Part shown: one piece after another, positions 2,991 through 64,000 of the stretch
How positions within the stretch are numbered: position 1 is the stretch's first letter
Layout: the number at the start of each line of letters is the position of its first letter
NCBI GenBank assembly: GCA_015229115.1
Contig: JADGCH010000007.1
Span: forward strand, 3,315 to 67,314
Direction: 5' to 3'
DNA length: 64,000 nucleotides
Origin: Magnetococcales bacterium
Lineage (GTDB): Bacteria; Pseudomonadota; Magnetococcia; Magnetococcales; JADGCH01
Made by a program: the position numbers and the translations under genes
Notes under the pieces: model-generated
The model's input: only the letters and a program-made list of their open reading frames with translations
Told to the model about the DNA's origin: nothing
Databases searched by the model: none

Positions 2991-3002
2991 GAGGAACATC
3001 CC

Positions 3003-6148: not shown

Positions 6149-6239
6149 ACAGAATATTTTTATTATAAATTTCTTGACCTGCCATGATAGAGCTGCTAAT
6201 CTTTCCCCATTCCTGAACATCCAATCTGCGGAGGTGTCC

Positions 6240-7343: not shown

Positions 7344-7357
7344 AGGAGACAGAATCA

Positions 7358-7789: not shown

Positions 7790-7791
7790 TC

Positions 7792-16964: not shown

Positions 16965-19900
16965 TTATCCTACCAGCGCTGCCCACTGATCACTGGGTAG
17001 ATTCACTCTCATCCCACTGGCTACACCGCTATCGGCCATGACCTGGCTACCGTAATCCTGGAGCATACGCGCCAGATTAGCCGTCTTCTTGACACTCAAA
17101 GCTGCGGAAGCCTTGCTGACATTACCGGCCAGATCGCTCTGGATGGCTTTGATGTTGGGATAGGAACCAGAATTCAGTGACACGCCAACACTCCAGCTAC
17201 CCGTAGCGGCTTCGACCATTACTTGACCCAGACTTTCGCCACTGTCAACGGTGCCATTTTTGTTGGCGTCGTTGAAGACGGTCACGGTCGCCCCCTTCTC
17301 ACCCTTACCGGTCACGGTGCTATCGGTACTGTTGAACTTCAAACTTGAAGGGGCGGCTGGTGCAACGGCATCGACACTGATGGCCAAAGCTGCGGAAGCT
17401 GGACTGGCGTTACCGGCCAGATCAGCCTGACTGGCTGTGATGCTATGACTGCCATTACCGACCTTGGCAAGTGTCACGCTCCATCTGCCATCCGCACCAA
17501 CCAGACCGGTCCCCAGGCTCTTGCCCCCTTCCAACAGGGTCACGCTGGCTTTTGCCTCACCGCTGCCGGTAATGACCAAGCCGCTGGTCTTTTTGGTGAT
17601 GCCGTTGCCAGCAAGGGCATCAACAGTCGGAGCCGTCGGCTTTTCGTCATCGATCACGATCGTGAATGGGGTCGAAGGTTCGCTTTCAACACCACCCGCA
17701 CTATTGATCTGGGTGGCCGTGATGCTGTGCTCACCGGCCTCTAGGTTGGGCAAATCAACCTTCCAGGCTCCCTTCGATACGGTCGTCGTAGCAATTGGCC
17801 CGTCATAATCGTAGATCAGCACTTTGAGCCCGCCCGGAGCGGTACCAGTCAGGGTGAGGCCGGAAGTCTTGCTGGTGATGGCATCGCTCTTCGAAATACC
17901 GGTATCATCTGCGGTGTCCAGTTTGAGTCCACCCGGAGTTGCAACAACGATATTCACTGCGGCTGAAACCTTGCTAGCGCTACCAGCCAGATTGGTCTGA
18001 ATGGCCTTGACGGCATGGGTACCGCCAGAAAGACTGAAATCGACCGACCATTCCTGTCCATCAACAACCGTGTTGGCTGAAGGTTCACCGGCATCCAGCT
18101 TGCCGTTGTTATTGACATCACCGAAAACCACCACCGCTGCTCCATGGATCCCGGTTCCGGTGACCTGCAAATGGCTTCCACTGGTCAGTGTCTGACTGGC
18201 CGCACCATTACCATTGATCTTCAAGGCCGCCGGAGCTGCCGGTACCGAAGTATCCACCGAGATCACCAGCGGCTCCGAATCACCGCTGCTCTCACCACCG
18301 GCGAGCTGACGTGCGGTCAGACTATGAGACCCTGCCGTCAGGCTGGCGATTGTGGCTTTCCACTTACCGTTGTTATCGGCCGTTGCCATGCTGCCGACGG
18401 GCTTGCCACCTTCAAACAAGGTGATCTTGCCACCTGGGCTGGCCGTACCAGTCACGGTCAATGCCTTGGATTTGCTGGTGATGTTGTCTCCAGCCACTCC
18501 GGTATCATCAGCTGCCAGCAGCGCCAGACCGGTTGGAACCGACGTCACCTGCTTAACCGACAACTTATAACCGCCCGTACCGTAGCCCTTGGCCGAAACG
18601 GTATAGGTGCCATCGGCGGTGGGCGTATAGAAGAAGCGTGCGTTCGCACCTGTACCACCGTCATCCGAGGCAGCAACAACCTCATCATTGCCTCTCGTGA
18701 TCTGTAAATAGGGATCCAGTTGTGCGGCAGCCGCGCTCTCCAGATCAAATCGATAGGTCTTATTGGCTGTCAGAGTGACGGTAAACCAATCTTCGTCGCC
18801 GGCTTTCTCAAGGCTACCACTGACCGATCCGTTCACCAACGCCCGTCCCGTGGTATTGCTGTTGGACAGGTAGTCGTCCTCAACGGCCAAAGAGGCGGAC
18901 AGACGGTAACTGCCCGTGCCATAGCCACTGGCAGCGATAAAATAGGTACCGTCCTCAGTGGCGGTATAGGTCAGTTGCGGATTGAGATCGGTGCCACCGT
19001 CATCGTCGGCGTCAATCTCCTCTCCATCGGCATCCAGCAATTGCAGATAAGGATCTTCCAGAGAGCCTTGTCCGGTCGATTCGCCCTCCAGGTCGAAGAC
19101 ATAGCTCATGCCAGCCGTAAGGTTGATGGCCAACCAGTCCTCATCTCCATCCGATTCGAGCTTACCGTTGACCACCTGATCGAGTGATAACTGATCCGTG
19201 CTCGTCGCATCATCCGCATAATCATCGGTCTGGTGGGTACGATTGACCATGGATACCAGATAGCTTCCTGTTTCATCACCATGGACGGACAGATAATAAG
19301 TGCCGCTGCTGGCTGCTGTGTAAACCAGGGTGGCACCAGGATCACTAGCCCAGGTATGGGCGGTACTCACTTCCTTACCGGTACCATTCATCAGGGACAG
19401 CTCCAGCCAACCCTCATAGTCATCGGGACTCACCTCAAAGCCGTAGCTGACTCCCTCAACGAGGGTCACGGCAAACCAGTCGGCATCGGCTGTGGTTTCG
19501 ATGTGACCCAGTACGGCATCGACACCCTCAACCAATTGACCCGTGGTGCCAGCATCGCCAGCGTAGTCATCGTCTATAGGTTCTGCTTTGGCCATCGACA
19601 AACGGTAACTGCCGGTGTTGTACTCACCATCCTCGCTGTCGGTGAATCCCAAAGCCACCAGATAACACAGGCCACTGCTGGTTGCGGTGTAGAGGATCCG
19701 CGCATTGCCGTTGGTATCGCTGACATCGGCGTTATAGGCCAGCTCCTCGCCATCTTCATCCAGCAGGACCAAGTAAGGATCGGCCAGGTTGCCCTGTGAG
19801 GTGGCCGACCCTTCCAGATCAAAGGCATAGGTCTCCCCATCGACGAGGGTAACGGTAAACCAGTCTTCATCCTCCATGGTCTCAATGTTACCGGTGACAG

Positions 19901-22900
19901 ATTCACCCACCGCCAGCTGACCCGTGCTACCCGGATCATCGTCATAATCATCGTCGTGCGAACCGGCTGTTGCCATGGTTGCTGACAAACGATAGCTGCC
20001 GGATGCCCCGACAAAACCCGATCCACTGACAGCCAAGGCATAATCACCATCTTCGGATGGGGTGAAGACGATGCGTGCGTTGGTACCGGTACTGCCATCA
20101 TCGTCCTCCGCTACCACTTCATCATCGGCACCCATCAACTCCAGATGAGGATCGGACAGCGTCCCCTGCCCGGTCGATTCCCCTTCCGCATCGAAGGTAT
20201 AGGTCATGCCAGCCGTCAGAGTCATGGTAAACCAGTCGCTATCCTGTGGCGTCTCAAGATTGCCCTTGACAGGGCTGCCCACGGCCAGACGGCCTGTCGT
20301 GGTGACGTCACTGACATAATCATCAATGCGCGTGGCATCGACCGCTGCTGACAGACGATATTGACCCGTTCCAGCCCCCATGGCGGCCAGAAAATAGGTG
20401 CCGCTTTTATCGGGTGTGTAGATGATCTGGGCGTTCGGGCTGGTAGCAACGTCATCGTTCGCTATCAACACCGTGGTGCCATCACGATCCATGAGCTGCA
20501 GGAACGGATCAGCCAGCGAGCCCGCTGCAGGCGTTGCTGCATCCAGGTTGAACAGGTAAGCCTTACCTGCCGTCAGCTTGATGGCAAACCAGTCCTCGTC
20601 CGATAGCGCTTCAATTTTGCCGGTGACAGACTTTCCGACCTCCAATTGTCCCTTGGCGCTGTCTGGATAATCGTCGGGACGGGCAACTGAGGATTGTTCT
20701 GCTGACAACCAGTAACCACCGGTCTCATCGCCCTGGACGGACAGGTAATAAGTACCGGCGCTCTGCGCCTTGTATTGAATCGTTGCAACAGGATCATCGT
20801 ATCCGGTACGAACATCGCCGGCACTGACCTTGTTCCCTGAACTATCCTTCACGGCAAAATGGAGCCGACCTTCGTAGTCGGACAAGCTGACGTCGAAACG
20901 ATAGTCCGTATTGGCGGCCAGTGTAACCGCAAACCAGTCTTCATCTCCTGGCTTCTCAATGTTACCGGACAGCGCCGCGCCGCCTATCGTCAACCGACCA
21001 GTCGTGCCACTGTTGCTCGAGCGGTCATCGTTGGGTGTCAGTGTTGCAGACAGATTATAGCCCCCTGTTTTCTGCTCCGCTGATCCCGGAGCAGCGACGC
21101 TGCTTCTGTTACCAGCACTTTGTACCAACAAAACATAATTACCGTTGCTAACAGCCGTGTAGACGATACGCGAACTAGGGCTGGAACTACGGGCATCATC
21201 CATCGCCACGATCGCCCCACTCGGATCAAGCAATTGCAGCACCGGCTTGGTCAAAGTACCATGGGCGGTAGGCTTGCCTGCCAGATCAAAGGTATAAGAG
21301 ACCCCAGCGTTCAGGGTCACCACAAACCGGTCGCTGTCCCCTGGCGTCTCGATGTTGGCTGTTATGGGCCTACCAACCGTTACCGAGCCCGTGCCACCGG
21401 CCTGATCATCCTTTACGGTCGCAGCAAGCCGATAGCTACCCGTGCCATGGCCACGTGCCGACAAAAAGAAATTGCCGCTGATGGTGGGCTTGTAGCTGAT
21501 GCGTGCATTGAGGCCGGTACCACCGTCTTCGTTAGAGATGATGACAGCGCCGCCACTGGGATCCAGCAATCGCAGTGAGGGATCAGCCAACGTTCCCTGT
21601 TGGGTGCTCGCCCCTTCCAAGTCAAAGACATAGTCCACACCAGCCATCAAGGGGACGACAAACCAGTCCTCATCGGTGACTATGCCAATGTTGCCAGTCG
21701 CAGGCTGCCCCACAGATAGCCTGCCGACGGTGCTGCTGTCAGCCGCATAATCATCCACTTGGGTGGTATCCCTTTTGCTCGACGCGGACAGGTTATAGCG
21801 GCCTGTGCCACCGTCGATGCTACCGGTAGTGAGATAATAGGTACCGTCGGTGGGGGCGGTATAGACAATACTCCAGATCCAGGATGCGTTACCCTGATGC
21901 TGATTGATATAGAAAGGCATGTTACCGTCGTAGCGTTCGATCTGCTTTCCATCGCTGTCTCTCAACAGCAGGCCAGGAAGCCATTTAGCCTGACCCTGTG
22001 ACGCCGGTCGACCTTCCAGGTCGAACTGATAGGTTTTTCCGGCCGCCAACGTGATGGCAAACCAGTCGGTATCCTCACCTGTTTCGGTGATACCTGTGGT
22101 GGAACCTCCCATCGATAACCGCCCGGTGGTGGTTTTATCACCGGCATAATCATCGGTCTGTGTGGTAGTGACCGCCAAACGATAGCTACCTGTGACCTTA
22201 CCGGTCCCAGTGGCAGCCAGGTAGTACAGGCCGCTGCTGGTGGGCGTGTAGACAACACGTGCATTGGCACCCATGCCATTGTCATCGTTAAACGCAGCAA
22301 CAGCGCCATTCTGATCGAGCAAACGCAGATAAGGATCGGCCAGGGTACCCTGAGACGTTGCGGCCCCTTCCAGATCGAAGGTATAGGTCACCCCAGCCGT
22401 CAGGTTGATGGCAAACCAGTCAGCATCGTCCACGGTGTTGATGTCACCATTCTTCCTGTATTGCTGGGGAGAAAACCGACCGGCGGTGTTGGCGTCACCG
22501 GTATAATCGTCGGTTGGTGTTCTGGTCGCGACTGCTGCCGACAGACGATAACTGCCTGTGCGGGCGTCATAGTCCCGGGCGGCGAGAAAATAGGTGCCAT
22601 CCGTGGTGGGTGTGAAGCTGATGCCGGCGTTGCGGTTAACATTCCTGTCACGATCGTCATTTTTGCTAATCTCGGCGCCGCTCGCGTCCAGCAAGCGCAG
22701 GAAAGGATCCGCTAACGTACCCTGTGCCGTTGCTGCCCCTTCCAGATCGAAGTTATAGGTCACTCCGGCTGTCAGCGTGACCGCAAACCAGTCCTCATCC
22801 TTGGCCAGCTCGACGTTACCGGTGATGGATCCACCGACCGCCAACCGGCCGGTGCTGGCCATGTCAGCGGCATAATCATCCTTGACGGCTGCCGACAGGC

Positions 22901-25900
22901 GGTAGCTACCGGCATGAAAGGCTTTGCTAGCAGCGGTATAGCCCCAAGCTGCCAGGTAGTAGGTCCCATCAACGGTCGGCGTGTAGCTGATTCGGTCATT
23001 ATTGTTGGAACCGCTCACGACATCCGCACCCGTGCTGACCGTGGTAGCACCTGTGCTATCCATCAGCTGCAGATAAGGATCGGACAGGCTGCCTTTGGCG
23101 GTAGCAGACCCTTCCAGATCAAAGGTATAGGCCACACCGGCCGCCAGAGTGATGGCAAAATAATCGGCATCGCCCCAGCTATCGGCGGCAGCGTCGATGT
23201 TACCGGTGACGGAGTCACCCACCGTCAGCTTGCCGGTGGTACTGGTGCTGGCCAGATAATCATCGGCCACAACCGACAGGCGATAGCTACCGGTGCCATC
23301 ACCGACCCCTTTTGCTTCCACAAAGTAGCTGCTGCTGTCAGCCAAGTAAGCGATCCGTGCACTCGTGCCAACACCAGTCGCAACTGATGAACCACCTGCA
23401 TTCAGCAGCTGCATGGAAGGACTGGCCAAGGTACCCTGTGAGGTGGCCGATCCCTCCAGGCTGAAGAAGTAGTTGACGCCGCTCGTTAACGAGACTGCGA
23501 ACCAGTCGGCATCGGCTGCTGTCTCAATTTGGCCCGTGGCCGGATTGCTGGTCGACAATACCCCTGTGGTACTGCTGTTGTCGGCATAATCGTCGGTTGA
23601 CGTGGTCGTCGTGGCCGTGGCCGACAGACTGTAACTGCCTGTGCTGCGCGTTTGGTTGGCAACGGTATAGCCCCACGCTGCCAGGTAATAGGTGCCAGCA
23701 ATGGTGGGCGTGTAGCTGATGGCCGCATTGTTGTTCGAGCTGCTGACATCGGCGTTGTAGGTGATGACGGTACCGCTACTGTCCACCAACTGCACATAGG
23801 GATCGGTCAAGGTACCCTTACTGGTCGCCACGCCCTCCAGGCTAAAATTATAGGTCGTGTTGGCCTGCAACGAGACAGCAAACCAGTCGACATCGGCCGA
23901 GGTCTCAATGTTGCCGCTGACCGAACCACCCACCGTCAGCTGACCCTTGGTGCTGATGGTGGCGGCATAGTCATCTGCCACCGCTGACAAACGGTAGCCA
24001 CCAACATTGAAGGCCTTACTGGACGGGGTATAACCCCAGGCCGCCAGATAGTAGGTGCCACTACTGGTCGGAGTGTAGAAAACTCTGGCGTTGCTGTTCG
24101 AGCTGCTGATATCGGCCTGAGTGGTGACGTTGGTGGCCACAACGGCGCCGTTGCCGTCTCTCAGATCGAGGAAAGGATCGGACAGCTTGCCCTGGGTGGC
24201 GGTAGCGAAGCCCTCCAAATCAAAGGTATAAGCCACATCGGCCGTTAACGAGACCGCAAAATAGTCTGCATCGCCCCAGCTGTCTGCGGCAGCGTCGATA
24301 TTACCGGTAGCAGAACCACCCACCGTCAAGCTGCCCGCCGTGCTGGTCGTGGCCAGATAATCATCGGCCAGCACCGACAAGCGATAGGTTCCCGTACCAG
24401 TCGCAACCCCCTTGGCCGAAACCAGATAGTTGCCATCCTGACTGACAAGGTACTGGATTTGTGCGTTCAAACCTGTGCCATTGTCATCATCAGAGACAAT
24501 CTGGGCACCATTCGCTCCCAACAGCTGCAGGAAAGGATTGGCCAAGGTGCCCTGCGAAGTAGCCGATCCCTCCAGGCTGAAGAAATAGTTCTTGCCACCC
24601 GTCAAGGTGACGCCAAACCAGTCAGCATCGGCAGCCACCTCGATGTTGCCGGTGGTGGGTGCGTCAACCGTCACCTTGCCGGTGGTGCTGGTAGTGCCGG
24701 CGTAGTCATCCGTGACCTCAACCGTTGTCGTCGTTACTACAGTCTTGTCGGTAAACCGGAGCTGTTCAACGGCTGTGATACGATCGACACCGTCACGGTC
24801 AGCAGTGGTATCGGTAACGGTTACACTACCATCTTCCAGTCTGACGATGGTGTATTGACTGCTGCTACCTGAAAAAACGACGGCATCGTTACCGGCACCA
24901 CCGTTGATGGTATCGTTACCCAGACCACCGGTCAGGAGGTTATCGAGACCATTACCGATGATGGTGTCGTTACCCTTGCCAGCCACGGCATTCTCAATAT
25001 CGCATCCGTAGGCGATCGAGATGTTGTTGTTGACATGAACCTGGGCACCATCGCTGGAACGGGTGTAGTAATAGCCGGTATCGAGAGCACAGGCGCTGGA
25101 AAAAGAGCCTTGATTCAGGTTGATGACTTCATCCTGGCTGTAGCCCGACAAGTTCAGTGTATCGATGCCACCCCCATCCCAAATACAGACCACGCGCTGG
25201 GTCATGTCCGAGAAATTGAATTCTTCCGCGATGCCTGCCGTGGCTCCAAAGCCATAGACGGTATCACCGCTGCGTGTCGTCTTGTTGGCACCATAAACGG
25301 CCTGTATCGCGACAATATCGAACAGCAGCGGCGTACGGGCAAAATTGCTGCCGTGGAAGGTTTTGTTGGCACCCTCGGCATCATCCCCGGCATTCCAGTA
25401 CGACATCAGCGAATATTGTCGGGTATCGTTGGTAAAGATCGCATCGCCCTTGTAGGTGGCACCGCTACCATTGTATCGACCGGGATGGCCCAGACCGATC
25501 GAGTGACCCAGCTCGTGGATGGCGCACATGTTCTCGTAAGAACCCAGGGTGGCCAGTTTGGTGAAGTCGTAGGCGGTGGTGTTGTATTCGATAAAATTGG
25601 AGGTGATGACTCCATCCGACACGGTCGAACCAGACCAGGCATAAGGCGGCTCGGCATTTCTTCTGAATTTCATCTGGGCGACACTGGCATTGGTGGCCAT
25701 CTCGAACTGGATGTTACAGACATCCGACCAAGTCCTTAAAGCCGTTCTCTTGGCATTGATATGATCACTGCTCCAATCGCCCTCAACGGCCCAAGTCACC
25801 GTTGGCGTGCCGCTGCCCGCCGTGCCCCAGCGCCGACCCGTAGCATCCCCCCCGGCTGTCCAATAGCCGGTATTGAGGTAATCAGCAAAAATGGCTGCGG

Positions 25901-26054
25901 TAGCCGTAATCTTGGATTTCGCCACAACATTGGCACTGTTTCCACCGGTACCTGGACCAGCAGCATCCGGCTGCTGACCACCAGGCACATCGGACAGGCT
26001 AAGCGTGTTAGATTGAAGTTGGCCTGTAGTCATCGTGTTCTCCATGCTGATCAC
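16965..26054 (-). CDS. giant secreted serralysin-like (M10B) zinc metalloprotease with RTX motifs, 17 PPC-like modules and 5 Ig-like modules (3029 aa)
   Basis: The zinc motif HELGHSIGLGH is encoded at nt 25485-25517, and the Met-turn SLMSYW follows it. About four nonapeptides (GKGNDTIIG NGLDNLLTG GLGNDTING GAGNDAVVF) lie at nt ~24876-24983, followed by the repeat arrays listed below. The likely start is ATG 26033, which has GGAG 6 nt upstream. GTG 26054 and ATG 26045 are also in frame. Confidence 0.9.
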   Translation of the reverse strand: MISMENTMTTGQLQSNTLSLSDVPGGQQPDAAGPGTGGNSANVVAKSKITATAAIFADYLNTGYWTAGGDATGRRWGTAGSGTPTVTWAVEGDWSSDHINAKRTALRTWSDVCNIQFEMATNASVAQMKFRRNAEPPYAWSGSTVSDGVITSNFIEYNTTAYDFTKLATLGSYENMCAIHELGHSIGLGHPGRYNGSGATYKGDAIFTNDTRQYSLMSYWNAGDDAEGANKTFHGSNFARTPLLFDIVAIQAVYGANKTTRSGDTVYGFGATAGIAEEFNFSDMTQRVVCIWDGGGIDTLNLSGYSQDEVINLNQGSFSSACALDTGYYYTRSSDGAQVHVNNNISIAYGCDIENAVAGKGNDTIIGNGLDNLLTGGLGNDTINGGAGNDAVVFSGSSSQYTIVRLEDGSVTVTDTTADRDGVDRITAVEQLRFTDKTVVTTTTVEVTDDYAGTTSTTGKVTVDAPTTGNIEVAADADWFGVTLTGGKNYFFSLEGSATSQGTLANPFLQLLGANGAQIVSDDDNGTGLNAQIQYLVSQDGNYLVSAKGVATGTGTYRLSVLADDYLATTSTAGSLTVGGSATGNIDAAADSWGDADYFAVSLTADVAYTFDLEGFATATQGKLSDPFLDLRDGNGAVVATNVTTQADISSSNSNARVFYTPTSSGTYYLAAWGYTPSSKAFNVGGYRLSAVADDYAATISTKGQLTVGGSVSGNIETSADVDWFAVSLQANTTYNFSLEGVATSKGTLTDPYVQLVDSSGTVITYNADVSSSNNNAAISYTPTIAGTYYLAAWGYTVANQTRSTGSYSLSATATTTTSTDDYADNSSTTGVLSTSNPATGQIETAADADWFAVSLTSGVNYFFSLEGSATSQGTLASPSMQLLNAGGSSVATGVGTSARIAYLADSSSYFVEAKGVGDGTGSYRLSVVADDYLASTSTTGKLTVGDSVTGNIDAAADSWGDADYFAITLAAGVAYTFDLEGSATAKGSLSDPYLQLMDSTGATTVSTGADVVSGSNNNDRISYTPTVDGTYYLAAWGYTAASKAFHAGSYRLSAAVKDDYAADMASTGRLAVGGSITGNVELAKDEDWFAVTLTAGVTYNFDLEGAATAQGTLADPFLRLLDASGAEISKNDDRDRNVNRNAGISFTPTTDGTYFLAARDYDARTGSYRLSAAVATRTPTDDYTGDANTAGRFSPQQYRKNGDINTVDDADWFAINLTAGVTYTFDLEGAATSQGTLADPYLRLLDQNGAVAAFNDDNGMGANARVVYTPTSSGLYYLAATGTGKVTGSYRLAVTTTQTDDYAGDKTTTGRLSMGGSTTGITETGEDTDWFAITLAAGKTYQFDLEGRPASQGQAKWLPGLLLRDSDGKQIERYDGNMPFYINQHQGNASWIWSIVYTAPTDGTYYLTTGSIDGGTGRYNLSASSKRDTTQVDDYAADSSTVGRLSVGQPATGNIGIVTDEDWFVVPLMAGVDYVFDLEGASTQQGTLADPSLRLLDPSGGAVIISNEDGGTGLNARISYKPTISGNFFLSARGHGTGSYRLAATVKDDQAGGTGSVTVGRPITANIETPGDSDRFVVTLNAGVSYTFDLAGKPTAHGTLTKPVLQLLDPSGAIVAMDDARSSSPSSRIVYTAVSNGNYVLLVQSAGNRSSVAAPGSAEQKTGGYNLSATLTPNDDRSSNSGTTGRLTIGGAALSGNIEKPGDEDWFAVTLAANTDYRFDVSLSDYEGRLHFAVKDSSGNKVSAGDVRTGYDDPVATIQYKAQSAGTYYLSVQGDETGGYWLSAEQSSVARPDDYPDSAKGQLEVGKSVTGKIEALSDEDWFAIKLTAGKAYLFNLDAATPAAGSLADPFLQLMDRDGTTVLIANDDVATSPNAQIIYTPDKSGTYFLAAMGAGTGQYRLSAAVDATRIDDYVSDVTTTGRLAVGSPVKGNLETPQDSDWFTMTLTAGMTYTFDAEGESTGQGTLSDPHLELMGADDEVVAEDDDGSTGTNARIVFTPSEDGDYALAVSGSGFVGASGSYRLSATMATAGSHDDDYDDDPGSTGQLAVGESVTGNIETMEDEDWFTVTLVDGETYAFDLEGSATSQGNLADPYLVLLDEDGEELAYNADVSDTNGNARILYTATSSGLCYLVALGFTDSEDGEYNTGSYRLSMAKAEPIDDDYAGDAGTTGQLVEGVDAVLGHIETTADADWFAVTLVEGVSYGFEVSPDDYEGWLELSLMNGTGKEVSTAHTWASDPGATLVYTAASSGTYYLSVHGDETGSYLVSMVNRTHQTDDYADDATSTDQLSLDQVVNGKLESDGDEDWLAINLTAGMSYVFDLEGESTGQGSLEDPYLQLLDADGEEIDADDDGGTDLNPQLTYTATEDGTYFIAASGYGTGSYRLSASLAVEDDYLSNSNTTGRALVNGSVSGSLEKAGDEDWFTVTLTANKTYRFDLESAAAAQLDPYLQITRGNDEVVAASDDGGTGANARFFYTPTADGTYTVSAKGYGTGGYKLSVKQVTSVPTGLALLAADDTGVAGDNITSKSKALTVTGTASPGGKITLFEGGKPVGSMATADNNGKWKATIASLTAGSHSLTARQLAGGESSGDSEPLVISVDTSVPAAPAALKINGNGAASQTLTSGSHLQVTGTGIHGAAVVVFGDVNNNGKLDAGEPSANTVVDGQEWSVDFSLSGGTHAVKAIQTNLAGSASKVSAAVNIVVATPGGLKLDTADDTGISKSDAITSKTSGLTLTGTAPGGLKVLIYDYDGPIATTTVSKGAWKVDLPNLEAGEHSITATQINSAGGVESEPSTPFTIVIDDEKPTAPTVDALAGNGITKKTSGLVITGSGEAKASVTLLEGGKSLGTGLVGADGRWSVTLAKVGNGSHSITASQADLAGNASPASAALAISVDAVAPAAPSSLKFNSTDSTVTGKGEKGATVTVFNDANKNGTVDSGESLGQVMVEAATGSWSVGVSLNSGSYPNIKAIQSDLAGNVSKASAALSVKKTANLARMLQDYGSQVMADSGVASGMRVNLPSDQWAALVG
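17085..18554 (-). repeat. 5 tandem Ig-like modules of about 95-100 aa each
   Basis: The modules follow the pattern D(T/D)G.S..D.ITS...L.(V/L)TGT...G..V.(L/I)......G...V...G.W.V.L..L..G.HS(I/L)TA.Q...AG..S..S....I.VD...P, over about aa 2501-2990. A roughly 40-aa non-repetitive tail follows. Confidence 0.7.
18555..24710 (-). repeat. 17 tandem coding repeats of about 120 aa each (pre-peptidase C-terminal / PPC-like modules)
   Basis: Each module runs DDYA..T.G.L.VG....G.IE...D.DWFAV.L.AG..Y.F.LEG..T.QGTL.DP.L.LLD..G......D......NA.I.YTP...GTYYL.A.G....GSYRLS. I counted 17 terminal G.Y.LS motifs, spanning about aa 449-2500. Confidence 0.85.
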
Positions 26055-26305: not shown

Positions 26306-26380
<75 letters not shown>

Positions 26381-26386
26381 TTGGCC

Positions 26387-27502
26387 ATGCAAAATAACCT
26401 CACGTGTACAGGTTTCCATCCGTTGAGCAAGACCATTCAGTCCAATCCGTCCGGTCAATCCAATCCGTCCGCCAGGTTCTGTCACCATGAACCCGATCTG
26501 AACGATCGTGCCATCTTGGTCACCGGTGGCACGGGATCCTTCGGACGCCATTTTATCCGGACTGTACTGACCCGTTACCGGCCGCGCCGGCTGGTGGTAC
26601 TGTCGCGTGACGAGCTAAAGCAGTTTGAGATGCAGCAGGAGCCGCTATTCCAGCATCCGGCGTTGCGTTTCTTCATCGGTGATGTACGCGACCGCGATCG
26701 GTTGGAACGGGCCTTCTCCGAGATCGACATCGTTGTGCATGCCGCGGCCATGAAGCAGGTTCCCACTGCCGAGTACAATCCTTTTGAGTGCATTCATACC
26801 AACGTGCTGGGGGCCGAGAATGTGGTACAGGCTGCCCTGCGTGCCCGGGTCAGCCAGGTATTGGCGCTATCGACGGATAAGGCTGCCAATCCGGTCAACC
26901 TGTATGGTGCCAGCAAGTTGGCCTCGGATAAGATCTTTGTCGCAGCCAATCATCTTAGTGGCCACATCGGCACCCGCTTCGCTGTGGTGCGTTACGGTAA
27001 TGTGGTCGGTTCACGCGGTAGTGTCATTCCGTTTTTCCAGAAACTGATTGCCAACGGTGCTACTTCGCTACCGATTACCGACGCTCGTATGAGCCGGTTC
27101 TGGATCACTCTGCAGGAAGGGGTCGATTTTGTTCTCTCCTCTCTTGAGATGATGCGCGGTGGCGAGATTTTTGTGCCAAAAATTCCCAGCATGAACATCA
27201 TCGAACTGGCCCGTGCCATGGCGCCACAACTGCCGCATCACATCGTTGGTATCCGCCCCGGTGAGAAGCTGCACGAAGTCATGGTCACCGAAGATGACTC
27301 TCGCACCACCGTAGAACTGCACGATCGTTACGTCATCGAACCGGCCTTTGCGCTCTGGTGTGACTACGTCTCCCATCGCAATCAGCCCGACGCCAAGCCC
27401 GTTGCGGACTCGTTCCGTTATGCCAGCGATACCAACCCCCAGTGGCTGGACCACCAGAGTCTGCAGCACATGCTGCTAGAATCCTCTCTCCTCCATGGAT
27501 AG
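26387..27502 (+). CDS. pseB: UDP-N-acetylglucosamine 4,6-dehydratase (PseB/FlaA1-type); start codon uncertain
   Basis: Family motifs are ILVTGGTGSFGRHF, VHAAAMKQVPTAEYNPFECIHTNVLGAENV and YGASKLASDK. Homologues start about 10 aa before ILVTGG. Here the in-frame starts are ATG 26387 (7 nt after the tRNA) or TTG 26423, and neither has a Shine-Dalgarno sequence. Confidence 0.75.
   Translation: MQNNLTCTGFHPLSKTIQSNPSGQSNPSARFCHHEPDLNDRAILVTGGTGSFGRHFIRTVLTRYRPRRLVVLSRDELKQFEMQQEPLFQHPALRFFIGDVRDRDRLERAFSEIDIVVHAAAMKQVPTAEYNPFECIHTNVLGAENVVQAALRARVSQVLALSTDKAANPVNLYGASKLASDKIFVAANHLSGHIGTRFAVVRYGNVVGSRGSVIPFFQKLIANGATSLPITDARMSRFWITLQEGVDFVLSSLEMMRGGEIFVPKIPSMNIIELARAMAPQLPHHIVGIRPGEKLHEVMVTEDDSRTTVELHDRYVIEPAFALWCDYVSHRNQPDAKPVADSFRYASDTNPQWLDHQSLQHMLLESSLLHG
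26438..26473 (+). repeat. in-frame tandem duplication of an 18-nt unit (2 copies)
   Basis: The sequence is cag TCCAATCCGTCCG gt / caa TCCAATCCGTCCG cc. The 13-nt core is identical at 26441-26453 and 26459-26471. It encodes QSNPSG-QSNPSA in the putative N-terminal extension of PseB. Confidence 0.8.
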
Positions 27503-28727
27503 TTCGTCCACAGTCGTTGTGCTTCCCTACGGTCGACAGCAGATTGAAGAAGATGACATCGCTGCTGTAACGCAGGTGTTGCGCAGTGACTACCTCACGA
27601 CCGGTCCGATGGTCGCTCGCTTCGAACAGGCTCTGGCCCAGGTCACCACAGCTCGCCATGCCGTTAGCTGCTCGTCCGGAACGGCTGCTCTTCATCTGGG
27701 CGCCATGGTGCTCAATCTGGGACCCGGGGATGGGGTCGTAGTACCTGCCATCACCTTTTTAGCCACGGCTAATGCTGTCCGCTATGTCGGTGCCGAGGTG
27801 ATCTTCGCTGATGTCGACAGCGCTACCGGTCTGATGGGAGCCGAGCAGCTGTTGGCAGCCCTGCAACGTGCCGATGCCATGGGCGTAACCGCCAAGGCGG
27901 TGATACCCGTCCATCTCAATGGCCAGTGTGTCGCCATGGAGGAGATCGCTGCCGTGGCGCAGCAACGGGGGTTGGCCGTGCTGGAAGATGGTTGCCACGC
28001 CTTGGGAGCCCGTTATGGGGCGCAGCAGCAGCACCATCCGGTCGGTTGTTGCCACCACAGCGATCTGGTGGCCTTCTCTTTTCATCCGGTCAAGACCGTG
28101 GCCATGGGCGAAGGTGGGGCGCTGACCACCAACCGGGACGATCTTTATCGCCGCCTGCTGCGGTTGCGCAATCACGGCATGACCCAGCAGCCCGATGAGC
28201 TGCAACAACCCGAACTGGCGCTGGATAGCACGGCACAGCCCAATCCCTGGTACTACGAAATGGCTGAACCGGGCTATAACTACCGTGCCAGCGACATCCA
28301 CTGTGCTTTGGGTCTCAGCCAGCTGGGCAAACTGACCCGCTTTGTTGCCCGACGGCAGCAGCTGGTGGATCGTTACGACGCCCTGCTTAAACCCTTGGCA
28401 CCCACCGTCCGACCACTGACCCGTGTTGCCAACGGTCGCCCAGCCTGGCATCTTTACGTGGTGCAGATCGATTTTACCGAGCTGATGGAGCGCCGCGGCC
28501 TGGATCGGGCGGCGTTGATGCGGCAGTTGCGTGTCCATGGCATCGGCACCCAGGTCCACTATCTGCCGGTGGCCTGGCAACCCTACTATCGCCAGCGCTA
28601 CGGTATGCTGCCTCTGACAGGGGCTGGACATTATTACGCCCAGGTGTTATCCCTTCCACTCTTCCCCGGTCTGTCGGATGATGACGTCGACCGCGTCGTG
28701 GCAACACTGCAACAACTGGTAAGCTAA
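27495..28727 (+). CDS. pseC: DegT/DnrJ/EryC1-family aminotransferase, PseC-like
   Basis: The N-terminus LPYGRQQIEEDDIAAVTQVLRSDYLTTGPMVARFEQALA is typical of PseC. The gene overlaps pseB by 8 nt. Confidence 0.75.
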   Translation: MDSSSTVVVLPYGRQQIEEDDIAAVTQVLRSDYLTTGPMVARFEQALAQVTTARHAVSCSSGTAALHLGAMVLNLGPGDGVVVPAITFLATANAVRYVGAEVIFADVDSATGLMGAEQLLAALQRADAMGVTAKAVIPVHLNGQCVAMEEIAAVAQQRGLAVLEDGCHALGARYGAQQQHHPVGCCHHSDLVAFSFHPVKTVAMGEGGALTTNRDDLYRRLLRLRNHGMTQQPDELQQPELALDSTAQPNPWYYEMAEPGYNYRASDIHCALGLSQLGKLTRFVARRQQLVDRYDALLKPLAPTVRPLTRVANGRPAWHLYVVQIDFTELMERRGLDRAALMRQLRVHGIGTQVHYLPVAWQPYYRQRYGMLPLTGAGHYYAQVLSLPLFPGLSDDDVDRVVATLQQLVS

Positions 28728-35183: not shown

Positions 35184-35481
35184 GACTTTTACATACTCCG
35201 TTTGAAATAAAACACGCTAGAACAGGACGAACTCAAGCTAACGGTCATCACGATTTTCGTGTTGGTAGATTAAGGCACCAAAAAATAGACTTGTAACGAG
35301 AAGATTTGGCAAGGAGTGTGAATAAATTGATGAGAACTCTTGCCGTCTCCCATCGTTTGGTTATACATTAACACGGATGGAAGATGCAAGCAAAAAATAA
35401 TGCTCAAAAAAATATTCTCTTGGTATGGCAAGTGACCCAAACTATTGACACTCTGCAGAATCTGACGGAGATTTTTCGGGA

Positions 35482-36048: not shown

Positions 36049-36080
36049 ATTGACAAGGCAGTAGATCCTGAAGAGGCAGT

Positions 36081-44004: not shown

Positions 44005-44027
44005 CCGGCAATCAGGAGACCATTCAT

Positions 44028-60786: not shown

Positions 60787-63700
60787 ATGCCTGATAAAAC
60801 CACGGCCACGGCAGACATCTTTGCTGATTACCTGATTGTTGGCTATTGGGCCCAGTCAGGAGGAGGAAGCCGCCGCTGGGGCACGACGGCAGCCGCGCCT
60901 AACGTGATCTGGACCGCCACCGGCAGCTGGAACAGCAGGGAGCTGTCGGCACTCAGCGCGGCATTGCGCAGCTGGTCGGATGTCTGTGCTATCCGTTTTA
61001 CCCCATCGGCTGCTAACGGCGACGACGCCACGATCGAGTTTCTGCTCTCCAGCGATACCCCCTACTATGCTGGGTCGTGGTCCAGCGTTGATCGTGGCCA
61101 GACCGTTTATAGCCAGATGATTTTCAACGCCAACAGCTATAACCGCTCCGGGCTGGTAACCGACGGTGCCTATGAGAATATGGGATTGATCCACGAACTG
61201 GGCCATTCGATCGGTCTGGGTCATCCTGGACCCTATAACGGTGCCTCCTCCTACGCCAATAACGCCATTTTCAGCAACGATACCCGCCAATATTCGCTGA
61301 TGTCCTACTGGAATGCCGGATCGGATGGTAGTGGTAGTCATGGCAACCACTATCCACAAACTCCGATGCTGCTGGATATCTACGCCGCCCAACGTATTTA
61401 TGGTGCCAACTGGACCACCCGTAACGGTGATACCGTGTATGGCTTCCATGCTACAGCCGATGCCATCGGGTTCAACTTTACCGACTCGTCGCCTCACGTG
61501 CTTTGCATCTGGGATGGTGGCGGCATCGATACCATTGACTTATCCGGCTACACGGTGCCAGCCGTTCTCAACCTCAGCGCTGGCAGTTTCAGCAGTGCCG
61601 CCGGGATCAGCAACAACATCACCATCGCCTACCAGTGTGACATCGAAAATGGTATCGGCGGCACAGCAGCCGATACCATCAGCGGTAATTTACTGGACAA
61701 CCTCCTCACCGGCGGCCCAGGCGATGATCGCATGGATGGTGGTAGCGGCAACGATACCGTCTGCCTGAGCGGCAGACTGGATCAATATGTAGCCACCCTC
61801 AATGATGACGGGGAATACCTCATCACTGACCAAATGGTCGGTCGCGATGGCAGTGATCGCCTAACTGGTGTCGAATGGCTCCGCTTTGCCGATAGAACGG
61901 TTGCAATCAACGCGCTGATCACGCTACCCGTTCCAGGCGTCACACTGGTCCATGACAGTGGCAGTCTTGACACGGACCGGATCACCAACGACAGTGCTTT
62001 GGCTATTACGGGAGTCACCAGCGGTGCTTATGTGGAATATGCCATCAACGGCAGCAGCTGGACCAGCCATTATGATCCTGTCGAGGGTGCCAACGTGGTT
62101 CAGATACGGCAAACCCACCGTGTCAGCGGTGGCAGCAGTGACGCGGCCGTCCTGATATTTACACTCGATACAACAGCACCACCAACAGCTGCGCTGGCCC
62201 TGCAGCAGGATAGCGGCAGCAGTAACAGCGATGCCATCACCAGCCTGGCCAACCTGTCCATGACAGGGATCGAGACCGGTGCCTTGGTGAGCTATAACGT
62301 CAACGATAACGGCTGGCAAACCAGCTATCAACCCGTTGAAGGTCGTAACAGCATCCAGATCTATCAGACTGATAGAGCCGGCAATCGTAGTTATGTATCG
62401 GATCCGTTTGATTTCACACTGGATACCCTGTCACCTGCGGCACCTGGTGCAACCCTGTCCCATGATAGCGGCCGCAGCGCCACCGATGCCTTGACCTACA
62501 CGGCAGCGTTGTCCCTGACAGGTATTGAAGACGCGGCCATGGTTGAATACCGCATCAACAACGGCCGCGGTTGGTCCACAACGTATCGGGCTGTCGAAGG
62601 CTATAACAGCGTGCAGTTACGCCAGACCGATCGGGCTGGCCACGTCAGTCCACTATCAGCAGCCGTTGTGTTTACCCTGGACACCTTCCCTCCCTCGACC
62701 CCTCAACTGCTCCTGGTCAACGATAGTGGTGGCAGTAGCGGCGATGCCATCACCAGCTCGGCTGGCTTATCCCTGGCAGGGATCGAAAGCGGTGCCACAG
62801 TGTCCTATAACGTCAATAACGGCGGTTGGCAAACCAGCTACGATCCTGTCGAAGGCCACAACAGCCTCCAGGTACGCCAGACCGATGCAGCAGGCCATAG
62901 CAGTCCGGCAGCCTTATTGGAATGGAGTTACGATACCGTGGCACCGCTGGCACCCTCGCAACCCGAGCTCGACACAGCTGACGACTCGGGCCTGTCAGAC
63001 CACGACCATCTCACCAACCACAACAGTGATTTGACTCTTGCGGGCTACTGTCAGGAACAGGGCGGCGTTGTGATACTGTTCGACCATGAAACGGCTCTGA
63101 CAACCTCAGTCATCACCGGCACACGCTGGGGCAGTACCCTGTCCCTGGCAGAGGGTAGCCATGTCCTGACAGCACGTCAGACGGATCGGGCTGGCCACGA
63201 CAGCCCACGCTCCGAACCGTTGCTGATCACAGTAGACCGTTCAGCACCCGTGGCCCCCATGGTCGTGCTGGCCTACGATAGCGGCATCAGTGCCACGGAC
63301 CGCATCACCCATCAGGCCCTGTTGTCTGTCACAGCTGTGGAGAGCGATGCCGTGGTTGGCTACAGCCACGATGGCGGGCAAACGTGGCAGGAAAACTGGT
63401 CAGCTATCGAAGGGTTACAACAGCTGCAGATACGCCAGACGGATGCAGCGGGTAATCACAGTGCCGTGACACAGCTGGAATGGAGCTACGATACGACCGC
63501 ACCGTCTGTGCCTACTGACCTCGACCTCGACGGGTTGGATGATACCGGTATTTCCAGCAGTGATCATCTGACTAGCCTGACCAGCGGTCTAACCATCCGC
63601 GGCAATCATGGAGAAGTAGGCTCGACGTTGCTGCTGTTTGATGATGGCAATCAGAACGGTGTCCTGGAAAACCACGAAGGTCTGGCTACCCTGACCATCA

Positions 63701-64000
63701 CGGATGCCAGCTGGAACGGTGACATTGGGCTGACCACTGGCAGCCATGCCATTCGGGCCATGCAGGTTGATCGAGCCGGTAACCCTGCCCTGTCAGCCCT
63801 GTTATGGATCACGGTCGACCCTGCCGTGGCACCATCAGCACCTGTATCCCTTGATCTGAGTAGCCTGGACGACACTGGCCTGTCCCCGAATGATAACCTC
63901 ACCAGAACTACCAGCGACCTAACCATTCGTGGTATTGGTCAAAACAAAGCAACGGTGGCGCTGTTTGATGATCGCAACAACAACGGTCTATCCGACGCAG
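60787..64000 (+). CDS. second serralysin-like (M10B) metalloprotease with RTX motifs and Ig-like repeat passenger; 3' end outside window
   Basis: This ORF is absent from the ORF track because it never reaches a stop. I translated it by hand from ATG 60787, and it stays open to the window edge (more than 1071 codons). The zinc motif HELGHSIGLGH is encoded at nt 61192-61224, followed by the Met-turn SLMSYW. The RTX motifs are GGTAADTISG NLLDNLLTG GPGDDRMDG GSGNDTV. Confidence 0.85.
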   Translation, partial: MPDKTTATADIFADYLIVGYWAQSGGGSRRWGTTAAAPNVIWTATGSWNSRELSALSAALRSWSDVCAIRFTPSAANGDDATIEFLLSSDTPYYAGSWSSVDRGQTVYSQMIFNANSYNRSGLVTDGAYENMGLIHELGHSIGLGHPGPYNGASSYANNAIFSNDTRQYSLMSYWNAGSDGSGSHGNHYPQTPMLLDIYAAQRIYGANWTTRNGDTVYGFHATADAIGFNFTDSSPHVLCIWDGGGIDTIDLSGYTVPAVLNLSAGSFSSAAGISNNITIAYQCDIENGIGGTAADTISGNLLDNLLTGGPGDDRMDGGSGNDTVCLSGRLDQYVATLNDDGEYLITDQMVGRDGSDRLTGVEWLRFADRTVAINALITLPVPGVTLVHDSGSLDTDRITNDSALAITGVTSGAYVEYAINGSSWTSHYDPVEGANVVQIRQTHRVSGGSSDAAVLIFTLDTTAPPTAALALQQDSGSSNSDAITSLANLSMTGIETGALVSYNVNDNGWQTSYQPVEGRNSIQIYQTDRAGNRSYVSDPFDFTLDTLSPAAPGATLSHDSGRSATDALTYTAALSLTGIEDAAMVEYRINNGRGWSTTYRAVEGYNSVQLRQTDRAGHVSPLSAAVVFTLDTFPPSTPQLLLVNDSGGSSGDAITSSAGLSLAGIESGATVSYNVNNGGWQTSYDPVEGHNSLQVRQTDAAGHSSPAALLEWSYDTVAPLAPSQPELDTADDSGLSDHDHLTNHNSDLTLAGYCQEQGGVVILFDHETALTTSVITGTRWGSTLSLAEGSHVLTARQTDRAGHDSPRSEPLLITVDRSAPVAPMVVLAYDSGISATDRITHQALLSVTAVESDAVVGYSHDGGQTWQENWSAIEGLQQLQIRQTDAAGNHSAVTQLEWSYDTTAPSVPTDLDLDGLDDTGISSSDHLTSLTSGLTIRGNHGEVGSTLLLFDDGNQNGVLENHEGLATLTITDASWNGDIGLTTGSHAIRAMQVDRAGNPALSALLWITVDPAVAPSAPVSLDLSSLDDTGLSPNDNLTRTTSDLTIRGIGQNKATVALFDDRNNNGLSDA
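61933..64000 (+). repeat. at least 8 tandem Ig-like coding modules of two alternating types
   Basis: Type A (about 85 aa, 5 copies) follows DSG.S..D.IT....L.L.G.E.GA.V.Y.....GW.T.Y.PVEG.N..Q.RQTD.AG..S......F.LDT..P. Type B (about 100-110 aa, 3 copies) follows DD(S/T)G.S..D.LT....L.(I/L).G........L(L/F)DD.N.NG.......L.......W......L..GSH...A.Q.DRAGN. Confidence 0.75.

What the first reader, a model, noticed from the sequence alone, without database searches (positions are those of the whole stretch)
16965..26054. 3029-aa protein: intact-looking serralysin head followed by 17 PPC-like modules and 5 Ig-like modules
Canonical serralysins (family M10B) are about 50 kDa: an N-terminal protease, a C-terminal RTX beta-roll and a C-terminal type I secretion signal.

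Here the catalytic core keeps HELGHSIGLGH and the Met-turn, but the RTX part is reduced to about 4 nonapeptides. It is followed by about 2050 aa of tandem PPC-like modules, 5 Ig-like modules and a roughly 40-aa unique tail.

PPC domains normally occur once or twice at the C-termini of secreted proteases. I cannot match an array of 17 behind the protease head to any described architecture.

No T1SS ABC, MFP or OMP genes and no inhibitor gene lie in the window. The layout suggests a protease held on a long stalk (surface, matrix or S-layer-like), or an adhesin that has kept a protease head.
Basis: partly seen in the sequence, partly recalled or inferred. Interest (0 to 1): 0.7.

Follow-up and report, generated by a model that had tools for sequence, protein, structure and literature searches.

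The report
Giant serralysin protease on PPC stalk
An uncultured magnetotactic coccus (Magnetococcales) encodes a 313-kDa protein with an intact serralysin-type zinc protease at one end, followed by 17 calcium-type PPC modules and 5 Ig-like modules; it is an extreme, unstudied variant of known giant secreted bacterial proteins, not a new kind of system.

Summary
The ORF at 16965..26054 (-) is uninterrupted. It encodes a serralysin head with an intact zinc site and Met-turn and only 4 RTX nonapeptides. Behind the head lie 17 PPC modules, 5 Big_13/Big_6 Ig-like modules and a unique 39-aa tail. The repeats are old: 30-71% amino-acid identity and at most 79% DNA identity. They are therefore not an assembly artefact.

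The head models as a two-domain serralysin. A PPC di-module model best matches the calcium-bound ColG tandem collagen-binding domain.

New context:
- The host is a Magnetococcales MAG.
- A paralogue in the same window (60787..>64000) has the same head and the same Ig-like stalk but no PPC array.
- Every PPC module is closest to another module of the same protein, so the array grew by internal duplication.
- The nearest foreign head (60% identity) sits next to type I secretion genes.

The claim that no comparable architecture exists is only partly right. No studied protein matches, but databases hold uncharacterised M10B, S8 and M8 proteases with 6-13 PPC modules.

Most likely this is a type-I-secreted, calcium-folded protease on a long stiff stalk. 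The secretion route and the target are inferred, not shown. I rate it a new variant of a known kind, of moderate interest.

The parts
16965..26054 (-). Whole ORF: 3029 codons from the GTG. The probable start is the ATG at 26045 (3026 aa, 313 kDa, pI 4.19, 6 Cys). The stop codon is at 16965-16967.
25926..26054 (-). N-terminal extension of about 40 aa, low-complexity and predicted disordered. It has no hydrophobic signal-peptide-like stretch and is absent from the paralogue and from P0026.
   Evidence: pLDDT below 50 for model residues 1-39
25290..25925 (-). Serralysin (M10B) catalytic domain, aa 44-255.
25485..25517 (-). Zinc-binding motif HELGHSIGLGH (aa 180-190, GTG numbering).
25398..25412 (-). 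Met-turn with the catalytic Tyr, SLMSY (aa 215-219).
24711..25289 (-). Shortened serralysin C-terminal beta-roll domain (aa 256-448). It carries a 17-aa insertion and ends in beta-strands that include the motif VEQLRFTDKTV.
24873..24980 (-). Four consecutive RTX nonapeptides (aa 359-394): GKGNDTIIG, NGLDNLLTG, GLGNDTING, GAGNDAVVF.
18543..24710 (-). Array of 17 PPC modules (aa 449-2504), joined by linkers of 0-8 aa. Each module starts with D-D-Y and holds an invariant DxD(W/Y)F strand.
17085..18542 (-). Five Ig-like modules (Big_13/Big_6, Ca_tandemer type), aa 2505-2990. They are collinear with the C-terminal stalk of the paralogue.
16968..17084 (-). Unique 39-aa C-terminal tail (TANLARMLQDYGSQVMADSGVASGMRVNLPSDQWAALVG). 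It is a candidate uncleaved secretion signal; this is inferred only.
60787..64000 (+). Paralogue P0246 (1217 aa, of which 1071 lie inside the window). It has the same serralysin head and the same Ig-like stalk, but no PPC array and no tail.

Best explanation
The gene encodes an active serralysin-family zinc endopeptidase that is exported without a Sec signal, most likely C-terminus first through a type I secretion system encoded elsewhere. Outside the cell, where calcium is available, I expect folding in order of emergence: the five Ig-like modules, then the 17 PPC modules, and last the short beta-roll and protease head.

The PPC array has almost no linkers and keeps three invariant aspartates per module. 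I infer that it forms a calcium-stiffened rod tens of nanometres long. The rod would work as an extender and as a multivalent binder of an insoluble or polymeric target, as single or double PPC domains do for other secreted proteases. The result is a protease held at one end of a long stalk whose other end and shaft bind a surface.

Shown here: the domain identities, the intact catalytic residues, the module counts, the internal-duplication origin of the array, and the paralogue.

Inferred: the secretion route, calcium binding, rigidity, the target, and whether the protein stays on the producing cell.
For: Head.
- E about 1e-50 to solved serralysins, with the zinc motif and Met-turn aligned.
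- Catalytic residues are invariant in a 43-sequence alignment.
- The AlphaFold model has pLDDT 87 and pTM 0.87. Its best fold matches are serralysins at E about 1e-27 over both domains.
- Both paralogues keep the catalytic residues at 52% head identity.

PPC array.
- 16 of 17 modules hit Pfam PPC on their own.
- The di-module model (pLDDT 82.6) best matches 5IKU, the ColG tandem collagen-binding domain with calcium, at E 4.6e-11.
- A profile of the modules aligns the DxDWF strand to SDQDYFYF of the ColH collagen-binding domain.
- D2, D28 and D30 are invariant in all 17 modules.
- In ColG, calcium converts the s3a-s3b linker from helix to strand (PMC4356367).

Secretion.
- No hydrophobic N-terminal stretch.
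- pI 4.19 and only 6 Cys in 3026 aa; 90% of RTX proteins have pI 3.2-4.9 (PMC3034196).
- The gene of the nearest foreign head, P0026 (60% identity), is followed directly by a C39-ABC transporter and an MFP.
- Caulobacter Sap is a serralysin head fused to a non-RTX surface-related half. It lacks a recognisable signal yet is secreted by a T1SS (PMC3034196).

Native gene. GC3 is 0.62, like the neighbouring genes. The repeats are diverged.
Against: - No T1SS gene lies in the 64-kb window.
- The RTX block sits next to the head, not next to the C-terminus. This differs from every characterised T1SS substrate class I compared.
- The tail matches nothing, and the paralogue ends without it. The tail is therefore not a shared signal.
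- Calcium binding and rigidity are inferred from motif and fold only.
- No substrate or binding target is known.
- P0006, the most similar foreign architecture, also has no T1SS genes nearby.
Confidence: 0.55

Rival explanations
1. The protein is mainly a structural or adhesive surface protein (S-layer-, matrix- or flagellar-sheath-associated). The protease head serves to edit or process the cell's own surface proteins, as proposed for Caulobacter Sap. The stalk binds the producer's own surface lattice rather than an external substrate.
For: - Caulobacter Sap combines a serralysin head with an S-layer-like half and acts on the S-layer protein (PMC3034196). NCBIfam SapA is the second-best family hit, though at the head only.
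- The Ig-like modules are of the Big_13/Big_6 'Ca_tandemer' adhesin type.
- In the same order, Magnetococcales strain MO-1 builds its flagellar-bundle sheath from a calcium-dependent glycoprotein of more than 350 kDa (PMC7175107).
- PseB and PseC equivalogues lie just upstream on the other strand.
- A GGDEF gene converges on the 3' end.
Against: - The SapA hit scores 191 bits against a cut-off of 1200 and covers only the head.
- No anchoring or retention module was detected.
- PseB and PseC are separated from the gene by a tRNA gene and are ordinary flagellin-glycosylation genes.
Confidence: 0.2
2. The PPC array is a removable pre-peptidase region. It helps export, folding or solubility, and is then trimmed stepwise to release an ordinary protease of about 45 kDa.
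For: - PPC domains are named for their removal after secretion.
- Pseudoalteromonas protease E495 occurs as forms with 0, 1 or 2 PPC domains (PMC3327674 abstract).
- Several module junctions are Thr/Ser-rich short linkers.
Against: - Seventeen modules plus five Ig-like modules (2580 aa) would be a very costly disposable region.
- All 17 modules keep the invariant core residues after long divergence, which argues for a retained function in each.
- The paralogue works without any PPC module, so the array is not needed to export or fold the head.
Confidence: 0.15
3. The ORF is an assembly chimera, a collapsed or expanded repeat, or a decaying pseudogene.
For: - The sequence comes from a metagenome-assembled genome.
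- The protein is a singleton cluster on one contig.
- No orthologue was found in 185,579 species-representative genomes.
Against: - The 9.1-kb frame is uninterrupted.
- Repeats are at most 79% identical at the DNA level and Tandem Repeats Finder finds none.
- Composition is uniform and matches the neighbours.
- Both ends are collinear with an independent paralogue.
- The catalytic and module core residues are all kept.
Confidence: 0.03

Closest known systems
Canonical serralysins (M10B): Serratia serralysin/PrtSM, Pseudomonas AprA, Erwinia (Dickeya) PrtC
   Same: Two-domain fold with a protease plus a calcium beta-roll. HEXXHXXGXXH zinc site. Met-turn SxMSY with the catalytic Tyr. No Sec signal.
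   Different: The beta-roll is cut to 4 nonapeptides and carries a 17-aa insertion. The canonical C-terminal signal region is replaced by 2580 aa of PPC and Ig-like modules. No apr/prt-type operon with T1SS and inhibitor genes is present. The score is below the NCBIfam serralysin cut-off (221.6 against 500).
Caulobacter crescentus Sap (S-layer-associated protease)
   Same: A serralysin head with RTX repeats, followed by a non-RTX C-terminal part related to a surface protein. It has no recognisable type I signal yet is secreted by a T1SS (PMC3034196). It is the only characterised precedent for a serralysin head fused to a targeting region.
   Different: Sap is much shorter: the NCBIfam SapA model has 644 positions. 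Its C-terminal half resembles the S-layer protein RsaA, not PPC or Ig-like arrays. Similarity here is limited to the head (191 bits against a cut-off of 1200).
ColG s3a-s3b tandem collagen-binding domains (PDB 5IKU) and the ColH collagen-binding domain (3JQW)
   Same: Best fold match and only PDB sequence-profile match of the modules. Same PPC jelly-roll fold. Modules are in tandem, with a calcium-dependent N-terminal linker (PMC4356367).
   Different: Two modules instead of 17. They are attached to an M9 collagenase of a Gram-positive bacterium that uses Sec export. Sequence identity is about 14%. Collagen is not an expected target here.
Giant RTX adhesins (LapA, BapA/LapF, MpIBP, SiiE)
   Same: Several thousand residues, acidic, with long tandem arrays of calcium-stabilised beta-sandwich extender modules. 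They share the Big_13/Big_6 'Ca_tandemer' module type. That the extender arrays are stiffened by calcium is from my own knowledge of MpIBP and SiiE.
   Different: Those proteins have an N-terminal retention module and a C-terminal RTX block plus T1SS signal. Here the N-terminus is a protease, the RTX block is N-proximal, and the main extender is PPC rather than Ig-like.
Uncharacterised database proteins with a protease plus a PPC array (P0006, P0005, P0120, P0003, and the S8 + 9 PPC + RTX giants such as P0040 from Chlorobium)
   Same: A protease joined to 6-13 PPC modules of the same subtype (37-50% identity to individual modules). P0006 also has an N-terminal M10B head with a single short RTX stretch.
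   Different: They have fewer PPC modules, often interleaved with other domains such as Calx-beta, Big_5 and He_PIG. Most end in long RTX blocks and a classical T1SS C-terminus. None has been studied.
Paralogue in the same window (P0246, 60787..>64000)
   Same: The head is 52% identical over 394 aa, with the same short RTX and the same end motif. The C-terminal Ig-like stalk is collinear at 33% identity over 524 columns.
   Different: No PPC array, no 40-aa N-terminal extension, no 17-aa head insertion and no C-terminal tail. Total length is 1217 aa.

Membership tests
Serralysin family (MEROPS M10B) | Zinc-binding motif HEXXHXXGXXH | tested here: met
   HELGHSIGLGH aligns to HEIGHTLGLSH of 6IXX/3U1R. 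H, E, H, G, H are invariant in 43 sequences.
Serralysin family (MEROPS M10B) | Met-turn SxMSY with the fifth-ligand Tyr | tested here: met
   SLMSYW aligns to SVMSYW. M214, S215 and Y216 are invariant.
Serralysin family (MEROPS M10B) | Two-domain fold with a C-terminal RTX beta-roll | tested here: met
   Pfam Peptidase_M10_C scores 77.6 bits against 20.7, and HemolysinCabind 27.9 against 23. The model's best fold matches are serralysins, E about 1e-27, TM 0.63. The beta-roll is short, with 4 nonapeptides.
Serralysin family (MEROPS M10B) | Score above the curated NCBIfam Zn_serralysin cut-off | tested here: not met
   221.6 bits against a cut-off of 500. It is a divergent member, not an equivalogue of the classical enzymes.
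Serralysin family (MEROPS M10B) | C-terminal uncleaved T1SS signal and linked ABC/MFP/OMP (and inhibitor) genes | tested here: inconclusive
   None in the 64-kb window. The tail has no relatives. A further 25.5 kb of the contig and the rest of the genome could not be seen.
Serralysin family (MEROPS M10B) | Zinc-dependent endopeptidase activity | not testable with these tools
   Needs a recombinant head and an activity assay.
[quoted passage not shown] | Profile match above the gathering score | tested here: met
   Whole protein scores 253.7 bits against 25.9, E 1.5e-76. 16 of 17 single modules match at E no higher than 0.01.
[quoted passage not shown] | Beta-sandwich fold like the clostridial collagen-binding domain | tested here: met
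   The di-module model has pLDDT 82.6. The top PDB match is 5IKU at E 4.6e-11 over 236 columns. The profile hits 3JQW.
[quoted passage not shown] | Calcium site formed by the N-terminal linker and the DxD(Y/W)F strand | tested here: inconclusive
   D2, D28 and D30 are invariant in 17 modules. The strand aligns to SDQDYFYF of ColH. Ligand identity is inferred, and no metal was modelled.
[quoted passage not shown] | Removed from the mature secreted peptidase | not testable with these tools
   Needs native protein.
RTX/BapA-LapA-type giant adhesins | Tandem calcium-stabilised Ig-like extender modules | tested here: met
   Big_13 scores 76.5 bits and Big_6 76.3 bits. NF033510 Ca_tandemer scores 63.4 against 50.
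RTX/BapA-LapA-type giant adhesins | N-terminal retention module that plugs the outer-membrane channel | tested here: not met
   The N-terminus is a disordered 40-aa stretch followed by the protease domain. No other family was detected there.
RTX/BapA-LapA-type giant adhesins | C-terminal RTX block followed by a T1SS signal | tested here: not met
   The only RTX repeats are at aa 359-394. The C-terminus is an Ig-like module plus a unique tail, unlike the D-hydrophobic C-termini of the RTX homologues.
Type I secretion substrates in general | No Sec/Tat signal, acidic pI, very few cysteines | tested here: met
   No hydrophobic N-terminal stretch, by inspection of the sequence only; no predictor was run. 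pI 4.19 and 6 Cys in 3026 aa. The pI range of RTX proteins is given in PMC3034196.

The most novel reading that the evidence does not exclude
PPC modules, known only as single or double substrate-binding appendages, serve here as a new type of calcium-stiffened extender. In this reading they take over the extracellular folding-ratchet role of the RTX beta-roll in a type I substrate. The protein would be a cell-surface or flagellar-sheath-associated 'protease on a pole' specific to magnetotactic cocci, for example one that builds or edits their calcium-dependent glycoprotein sheath.
Probability: 0.1. Interest if true: 0.7.

Novelty: new variant of a known kind. Interest (0 to 1): 0.45.

Why it matters
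If the model holds, this protein widens the known repertoire of extender modules in giant secreted bacterial proteins, from Ig-like and RTX modules to PPC modules. It would also show a serralysin working as a tethered enzyme at the end of a rod tens of nanometres long, rather than as a freely diffusing one.

The two paralogues in one genome share the head and the Ig-like stalk and differ in the 17-module PPC array. They form a natural experiment on what the array adds.

It would also be a rare functional lead for the surface biology of uncultured Magnetococcales. The finding touches no long-standing open question, and many comparable uncharacterised giants already sit in databases.

Tried and rejected
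- Looking up the contig of the window's own protein and of the paralogue: nothing on record. The remaining 25.5 kb of the contig could not be searched for T1SS genes.
- Scan of species-representative genomes with the head plus first module: only distant hits in Burkholderiales and Dehalococcoidia MAGs, and no orthologue.
- Tail searches: phmmer against the 120 best homologues and a word-index search of 5.8 billion proteins both found nothing.
- Single-sequence PDB searches with a PPC di-module and with the Ig-like region: no hit. Only the 17-module profile reached ColH. The filamin hits in that profile search cover only part of the module and are not supported by the fold search, so I did not pursue them.
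- Pfam hits to GBD_IRG7_N, Filamin, Por_Secre_tail and Y_Y_Y overlap PPC modules. None has a stretch that passes on its own, so I dismissed them as cross-matches.
- Recent horizontal transfer: rejected, because GC and GC3 equal those of the neighbours.
- Literature searches for serralysin plus PPC arrays, or for giant proteases in Magnetococcales: no description found. The preprint on giant proteins of the Chlorochromatium consortium does not mention peptidases or PPC.
- A link to the MO-1 sheath protein could not be tested, because its sequence is not held in any tool here.
Full report

Yes. ORF 16965..26054 on the minus strand is the longest in the window. It reads through 3029 codons from a GTG. 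An AAGGG ribosome-binding site lies 8 nt upstream of the ATG at 26045, which makes a 3026-aa product more likely. The public database calls the gene from the next ATG, giving 3022 aa (P0001). The product is 313 kDa with pI 4.19 and has only 6 cysteines.

Pfam finds Peptidase_M10_C, one RTX stretch, PPC (E 1.5e-76), Big_13 and Big_6. NCBIfam finds the serralysin subfamily model below its cut-off (221.6 against 500) and the 'Ca_tandemer' adhesin repeat above its cut-off.

**2. The head**

phmmer against all PDB chains gives E about 1e-50 to some 20 serralysin entries. HELGHSIGLGH aligns to HEIGHTLGLSH and SLMSYW to SVMSYW. In a 43-sequence alignment the five zinc-motif residues and the Met-Ser-Tyr of the Met-turn are invariant.

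An AlphaFold model built on that alignment has pLDDT 87.2 and pTM 0.87. Its best PDB matches are serralysins over both domains, at E about 1e-27.

Three things differ from the 50-kDa enzymes:
- The first 40 or so residues are a disordered extension.
- A 17-aa insertion sits in the beta-roll domain.
- The beta-roll has only four consecutive nonapeptides (aa 359-394). It is closed by a short beta unit ending in VEQLRFTDKTV, where the usual C-terminal signal region would be.

**3. The PPC array**

Seventeen modules of 110-133 aa run from aa 449 to aa 2504, with linkers of 0-8 aa. Sixteen of them hit Pfam PPC when scanned alone. Pairwise identity is 30-71%.

At the DNA level no copy pair exceeds 79% identity, and Tandem Repeats Finder reports nothing. 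Collapse or expansion during assembly is therefore very unlikely.

Each module's best BLAST partner is another module of the same protein rather than any of 461 PPC modules from the homologues. M1 resembles M4 (59%) and M2 resembles M5 (71%). The array thus grew by internal duplication, partly in three-module blocks.

D2, D28 and D30 are invariant in every module. A di-module model (pLDDT 82.6) best matches 5IKU, the calcium-bound tandem collagen-binding domain of ColG, at E 4.6e-11 over 236 columns. The 17-module profile aligns its DxDWF strand to SDQDYFYF of the ColH collagen-binding domain. In ColG, calcium switches the linker between the two domains from helix to strand (PMC4356367). Calcium binding and stiffening in the present array are inferred from these parallels and were not shown.

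**4. The C-terminus**

Five Ig-like modules (aa 2505-2990) are followed by a 39-aa tail. The tail has no match among the 120 best homologues, and no database protein shares three 5-residue words with it. Most RTX-type homologues end in the familiar acidic-then-hydrophobic T1SS C-terminus preceded by RTX blocks. This protein does not.

**5. Context**

CarB of the window clusters at 90% identity or more with a protein of a Magnetococcales MAG. GC and GC3 of the gene equal those of its neighbours.

The neighbours are as follows:
- Downstream: a convergent GGDEF gene and a periplasmic binding protein.
- Upstream, on the other strand: tRNA-Val, then PseB and PseC equivalogues, carAB and greA.

None of the window's ORFs of 300 aa or more is an ABC exporter, an MFP or a TolC-like protein. 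The source contig is 89.5 kb, so 25.5 kb remains unseen.

**6. A paralogue in the same window**

An exhaustive HMMER search of 1.84 billion representatives with the head gave 31,160 hits. The nearest was P0026 (60% identity). Next came P0246 (56%).

P0246 proved to be encoded in this window at 60787..>64000 on the plus strand, running off the window's end. Its head is 52% identical over 394 aa, and its catalytic motifs are intact. Its C-terminal Ig-like stalk is collinear with aa 2500-2981 of the large protein, at 33% identity over 524 columns. It has no PPC module, no N-terminal extension and no tail.

The large protein is therefore the paralogue's scaffold with a PPC array inserted and expanded between head and stalk. 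Conservation of the active site in both copies argues against a vestigial head.

**7. Relatives elsewhere**

No orthologue exists at the 90% cluster level or in 185,579 species-representative genomes. The design, however, recurs in uncharacterised proteins:

| Protein | Layout |
|---|---|
| P0006 | N-terminal M10B head with one RTX stretch, 6 PPC, Calx-beta |
| P0005 | two M10 heads, 8 PPC |
| P0120 | 10 PPC ahead of an M10B head |
| P0003 | 13 PPC, Pfam PF01457 (leishmanolysin, M8) peptidase domain |
| Dozens of proteins of 4000-5000 aa | S8 protease, 9 PPC, RTX |

Seventeen modules is the maximum among the 120 best hits. The gene for P0026 is followed directly by a C39-ABC transporter and an MFP. 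P0006 has no such neighbours.

**8. How it most likely works**

I commit to a type-I-secreted, calcium-folded serralysin mounted on a PPC/Ig-like stalk, with confidence 0.55.

Support for the secretion route is indirect:
- There is no Sec-like N-terminus.
- The protein has the acidic, cysteine-poor character typical of RTX proteins (PMC3034196).
- T1SS genes lie next to the closest foreign head.
- Caulobacter Sap is a serralysin head fused to an S-layer-like half. It lacks a recognisable signal but is still secreted by a T1SS (PMC3034196).

Because type I export is C-terminus first, the Ig-like and PPC modules would fold outside before the head emerges. The array could then act as the folding ratchet that a long RTX block provides in other substrates.

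The near-absence of linkers and the conserved acidic positions suggest a stiff rod. Assuming 3.5-4.5 nm per module gives 60-75 nm for the PPC part; this figure is my estimate, not a computed result. PPC domains of other proteases bind insoluble substrates (PMC4356367, PMC3327674), so 17 copies would give high avidity for a repetitive surface.

What that surface is, and whether the protein stays on its producer, is unknown.

**9. Rivals**

- (a) A surface-structure or adhesin role, with the head as an editing protease, as proposed for Caulobacter Sap. The calcium-dependent glycoprotein of more than 350 kDa that forms the flagellar sheath in Magnetococcales strain MO-1 (PMC7175107) and the adjacent PseB and PseC genes make this worth testing. 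No sequence link could be examined. Confidence 0.2.
- (b) The array is a disposable pre-peptidase region trimmed after export. This fits the history of the PPC name and the multiple mature forms of protease E495. It fits poorly with the conservation of all 17 modules and with a paralogue that needs none. Confidence 0.15.
- (c) An artefact or pseudogene. Confidence 0.03.

**10. Novelty and verdict**

The head is a divergent but true member of the serralysin family, and the modules are true PPC domains. The protein is not a LapA/BapA-type adhesin, because two defining features were tested and not met: an N-terminal retention module and a C-terminal RTX block with signal.

No characterised protein has this layout, but databases already hold the same idea in smaller form. 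I rate it a new variant of a known kind, with interest 0.45.

The most novel reading still open is that PPC modules act as a new calcium-stiffened extender on a sheath- or surface-associated 'protease on a pole' of magnetotactic cocci. I give this a probability of about 0.1.

Noticed in passing
window 60787-64000 (+): A second serralysin-headed gene (P0246, 1217 aa) runs off the window end. It is a paralogue of the giant gene, with the same head and Ig-like stalk but no PPC array.
   Followed up: yes
window 26306-26380 (+): tRNA-Val (GAC) lies between the giant gene's start and the PseB gene. The mechanical TTG start of ORF 26381..27502 abuts the tRNA, so the true PseB start is probably further downstream (the PseB model matches from residue 40).
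   Followed up: partly
window 26381-28727 (+): PseB and PseC equivalogues, the first two steps of pseudaminic acid synthesis and usually involved in flagellin glycosylation. They are divergent from the giant gene and followed by carA, carB and greA.
   Followed up: partly
window 59803-60564 (-): A 253-aa protein with multiple EF-hands lies directly upstream of the paralogue. It gives weak sub-threshold hits to XopAW and lanmodulin models. It is another calcium-binding protein next to a calcium-dependent protease gene.
   Followed up: no
window 14716-16950 (+) and 13517-14713 (+): A 744-aa GGDEF diguanylate cyclase with a periplasmic binding protein gene upstream. It converges on the giant gene's stop codon, leaving only 14 bp between the two genes.
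   Followed up: no
window 48080-51973 (-): A 1297-aa protein with TPR repeats and a C-terminal CHAT (caspase-like) domain, followed on its strand by a U32-family peptidase gene at 47138-48076.
   Followed up: no
window 34476-38269: A small cluster with a GspH-like pseudopilin (prepilin N-methylation motif), two ORFs with no family match (212 and 486 aa), and a weak T2SSB-like hit. It may be a fragment of a type II secretion or pilus system.
   Followed up: no
window 43375-45323 (+), 6174-8361 (+), 951-4661 (+): Flavocytochrome c sulfide dehydrogenase with its cytochrome c, dihaem cytochromes c, and a PFOR-type oxidoreductase pair. This fits a sulfide-oxidising, microaerophilic Magnetococcales host.
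   Followed up: no
window 18543-24710 (-), modules M11 and M15: Two PPC modules (aa 1676-1793 and 2163-2276) form a distinct subtype. They lack the 'LEG..T..G.L.DP' loop and are each other's best match (49%). Module M8 carries a 14-aa insertion.
   Followed up: partly
L006 (contig CAUYUA010000261.1, Azospirillaceae bacterium CCP2SC5): The closest foreign head homologue, P0026, combines the serralysin head with Big_5, PPC, two NIDO (nidogen-like) domains and Calx-beta. It lies between phage-like genes and a T1SS ABC/MFP pair.
   Followed up: partly
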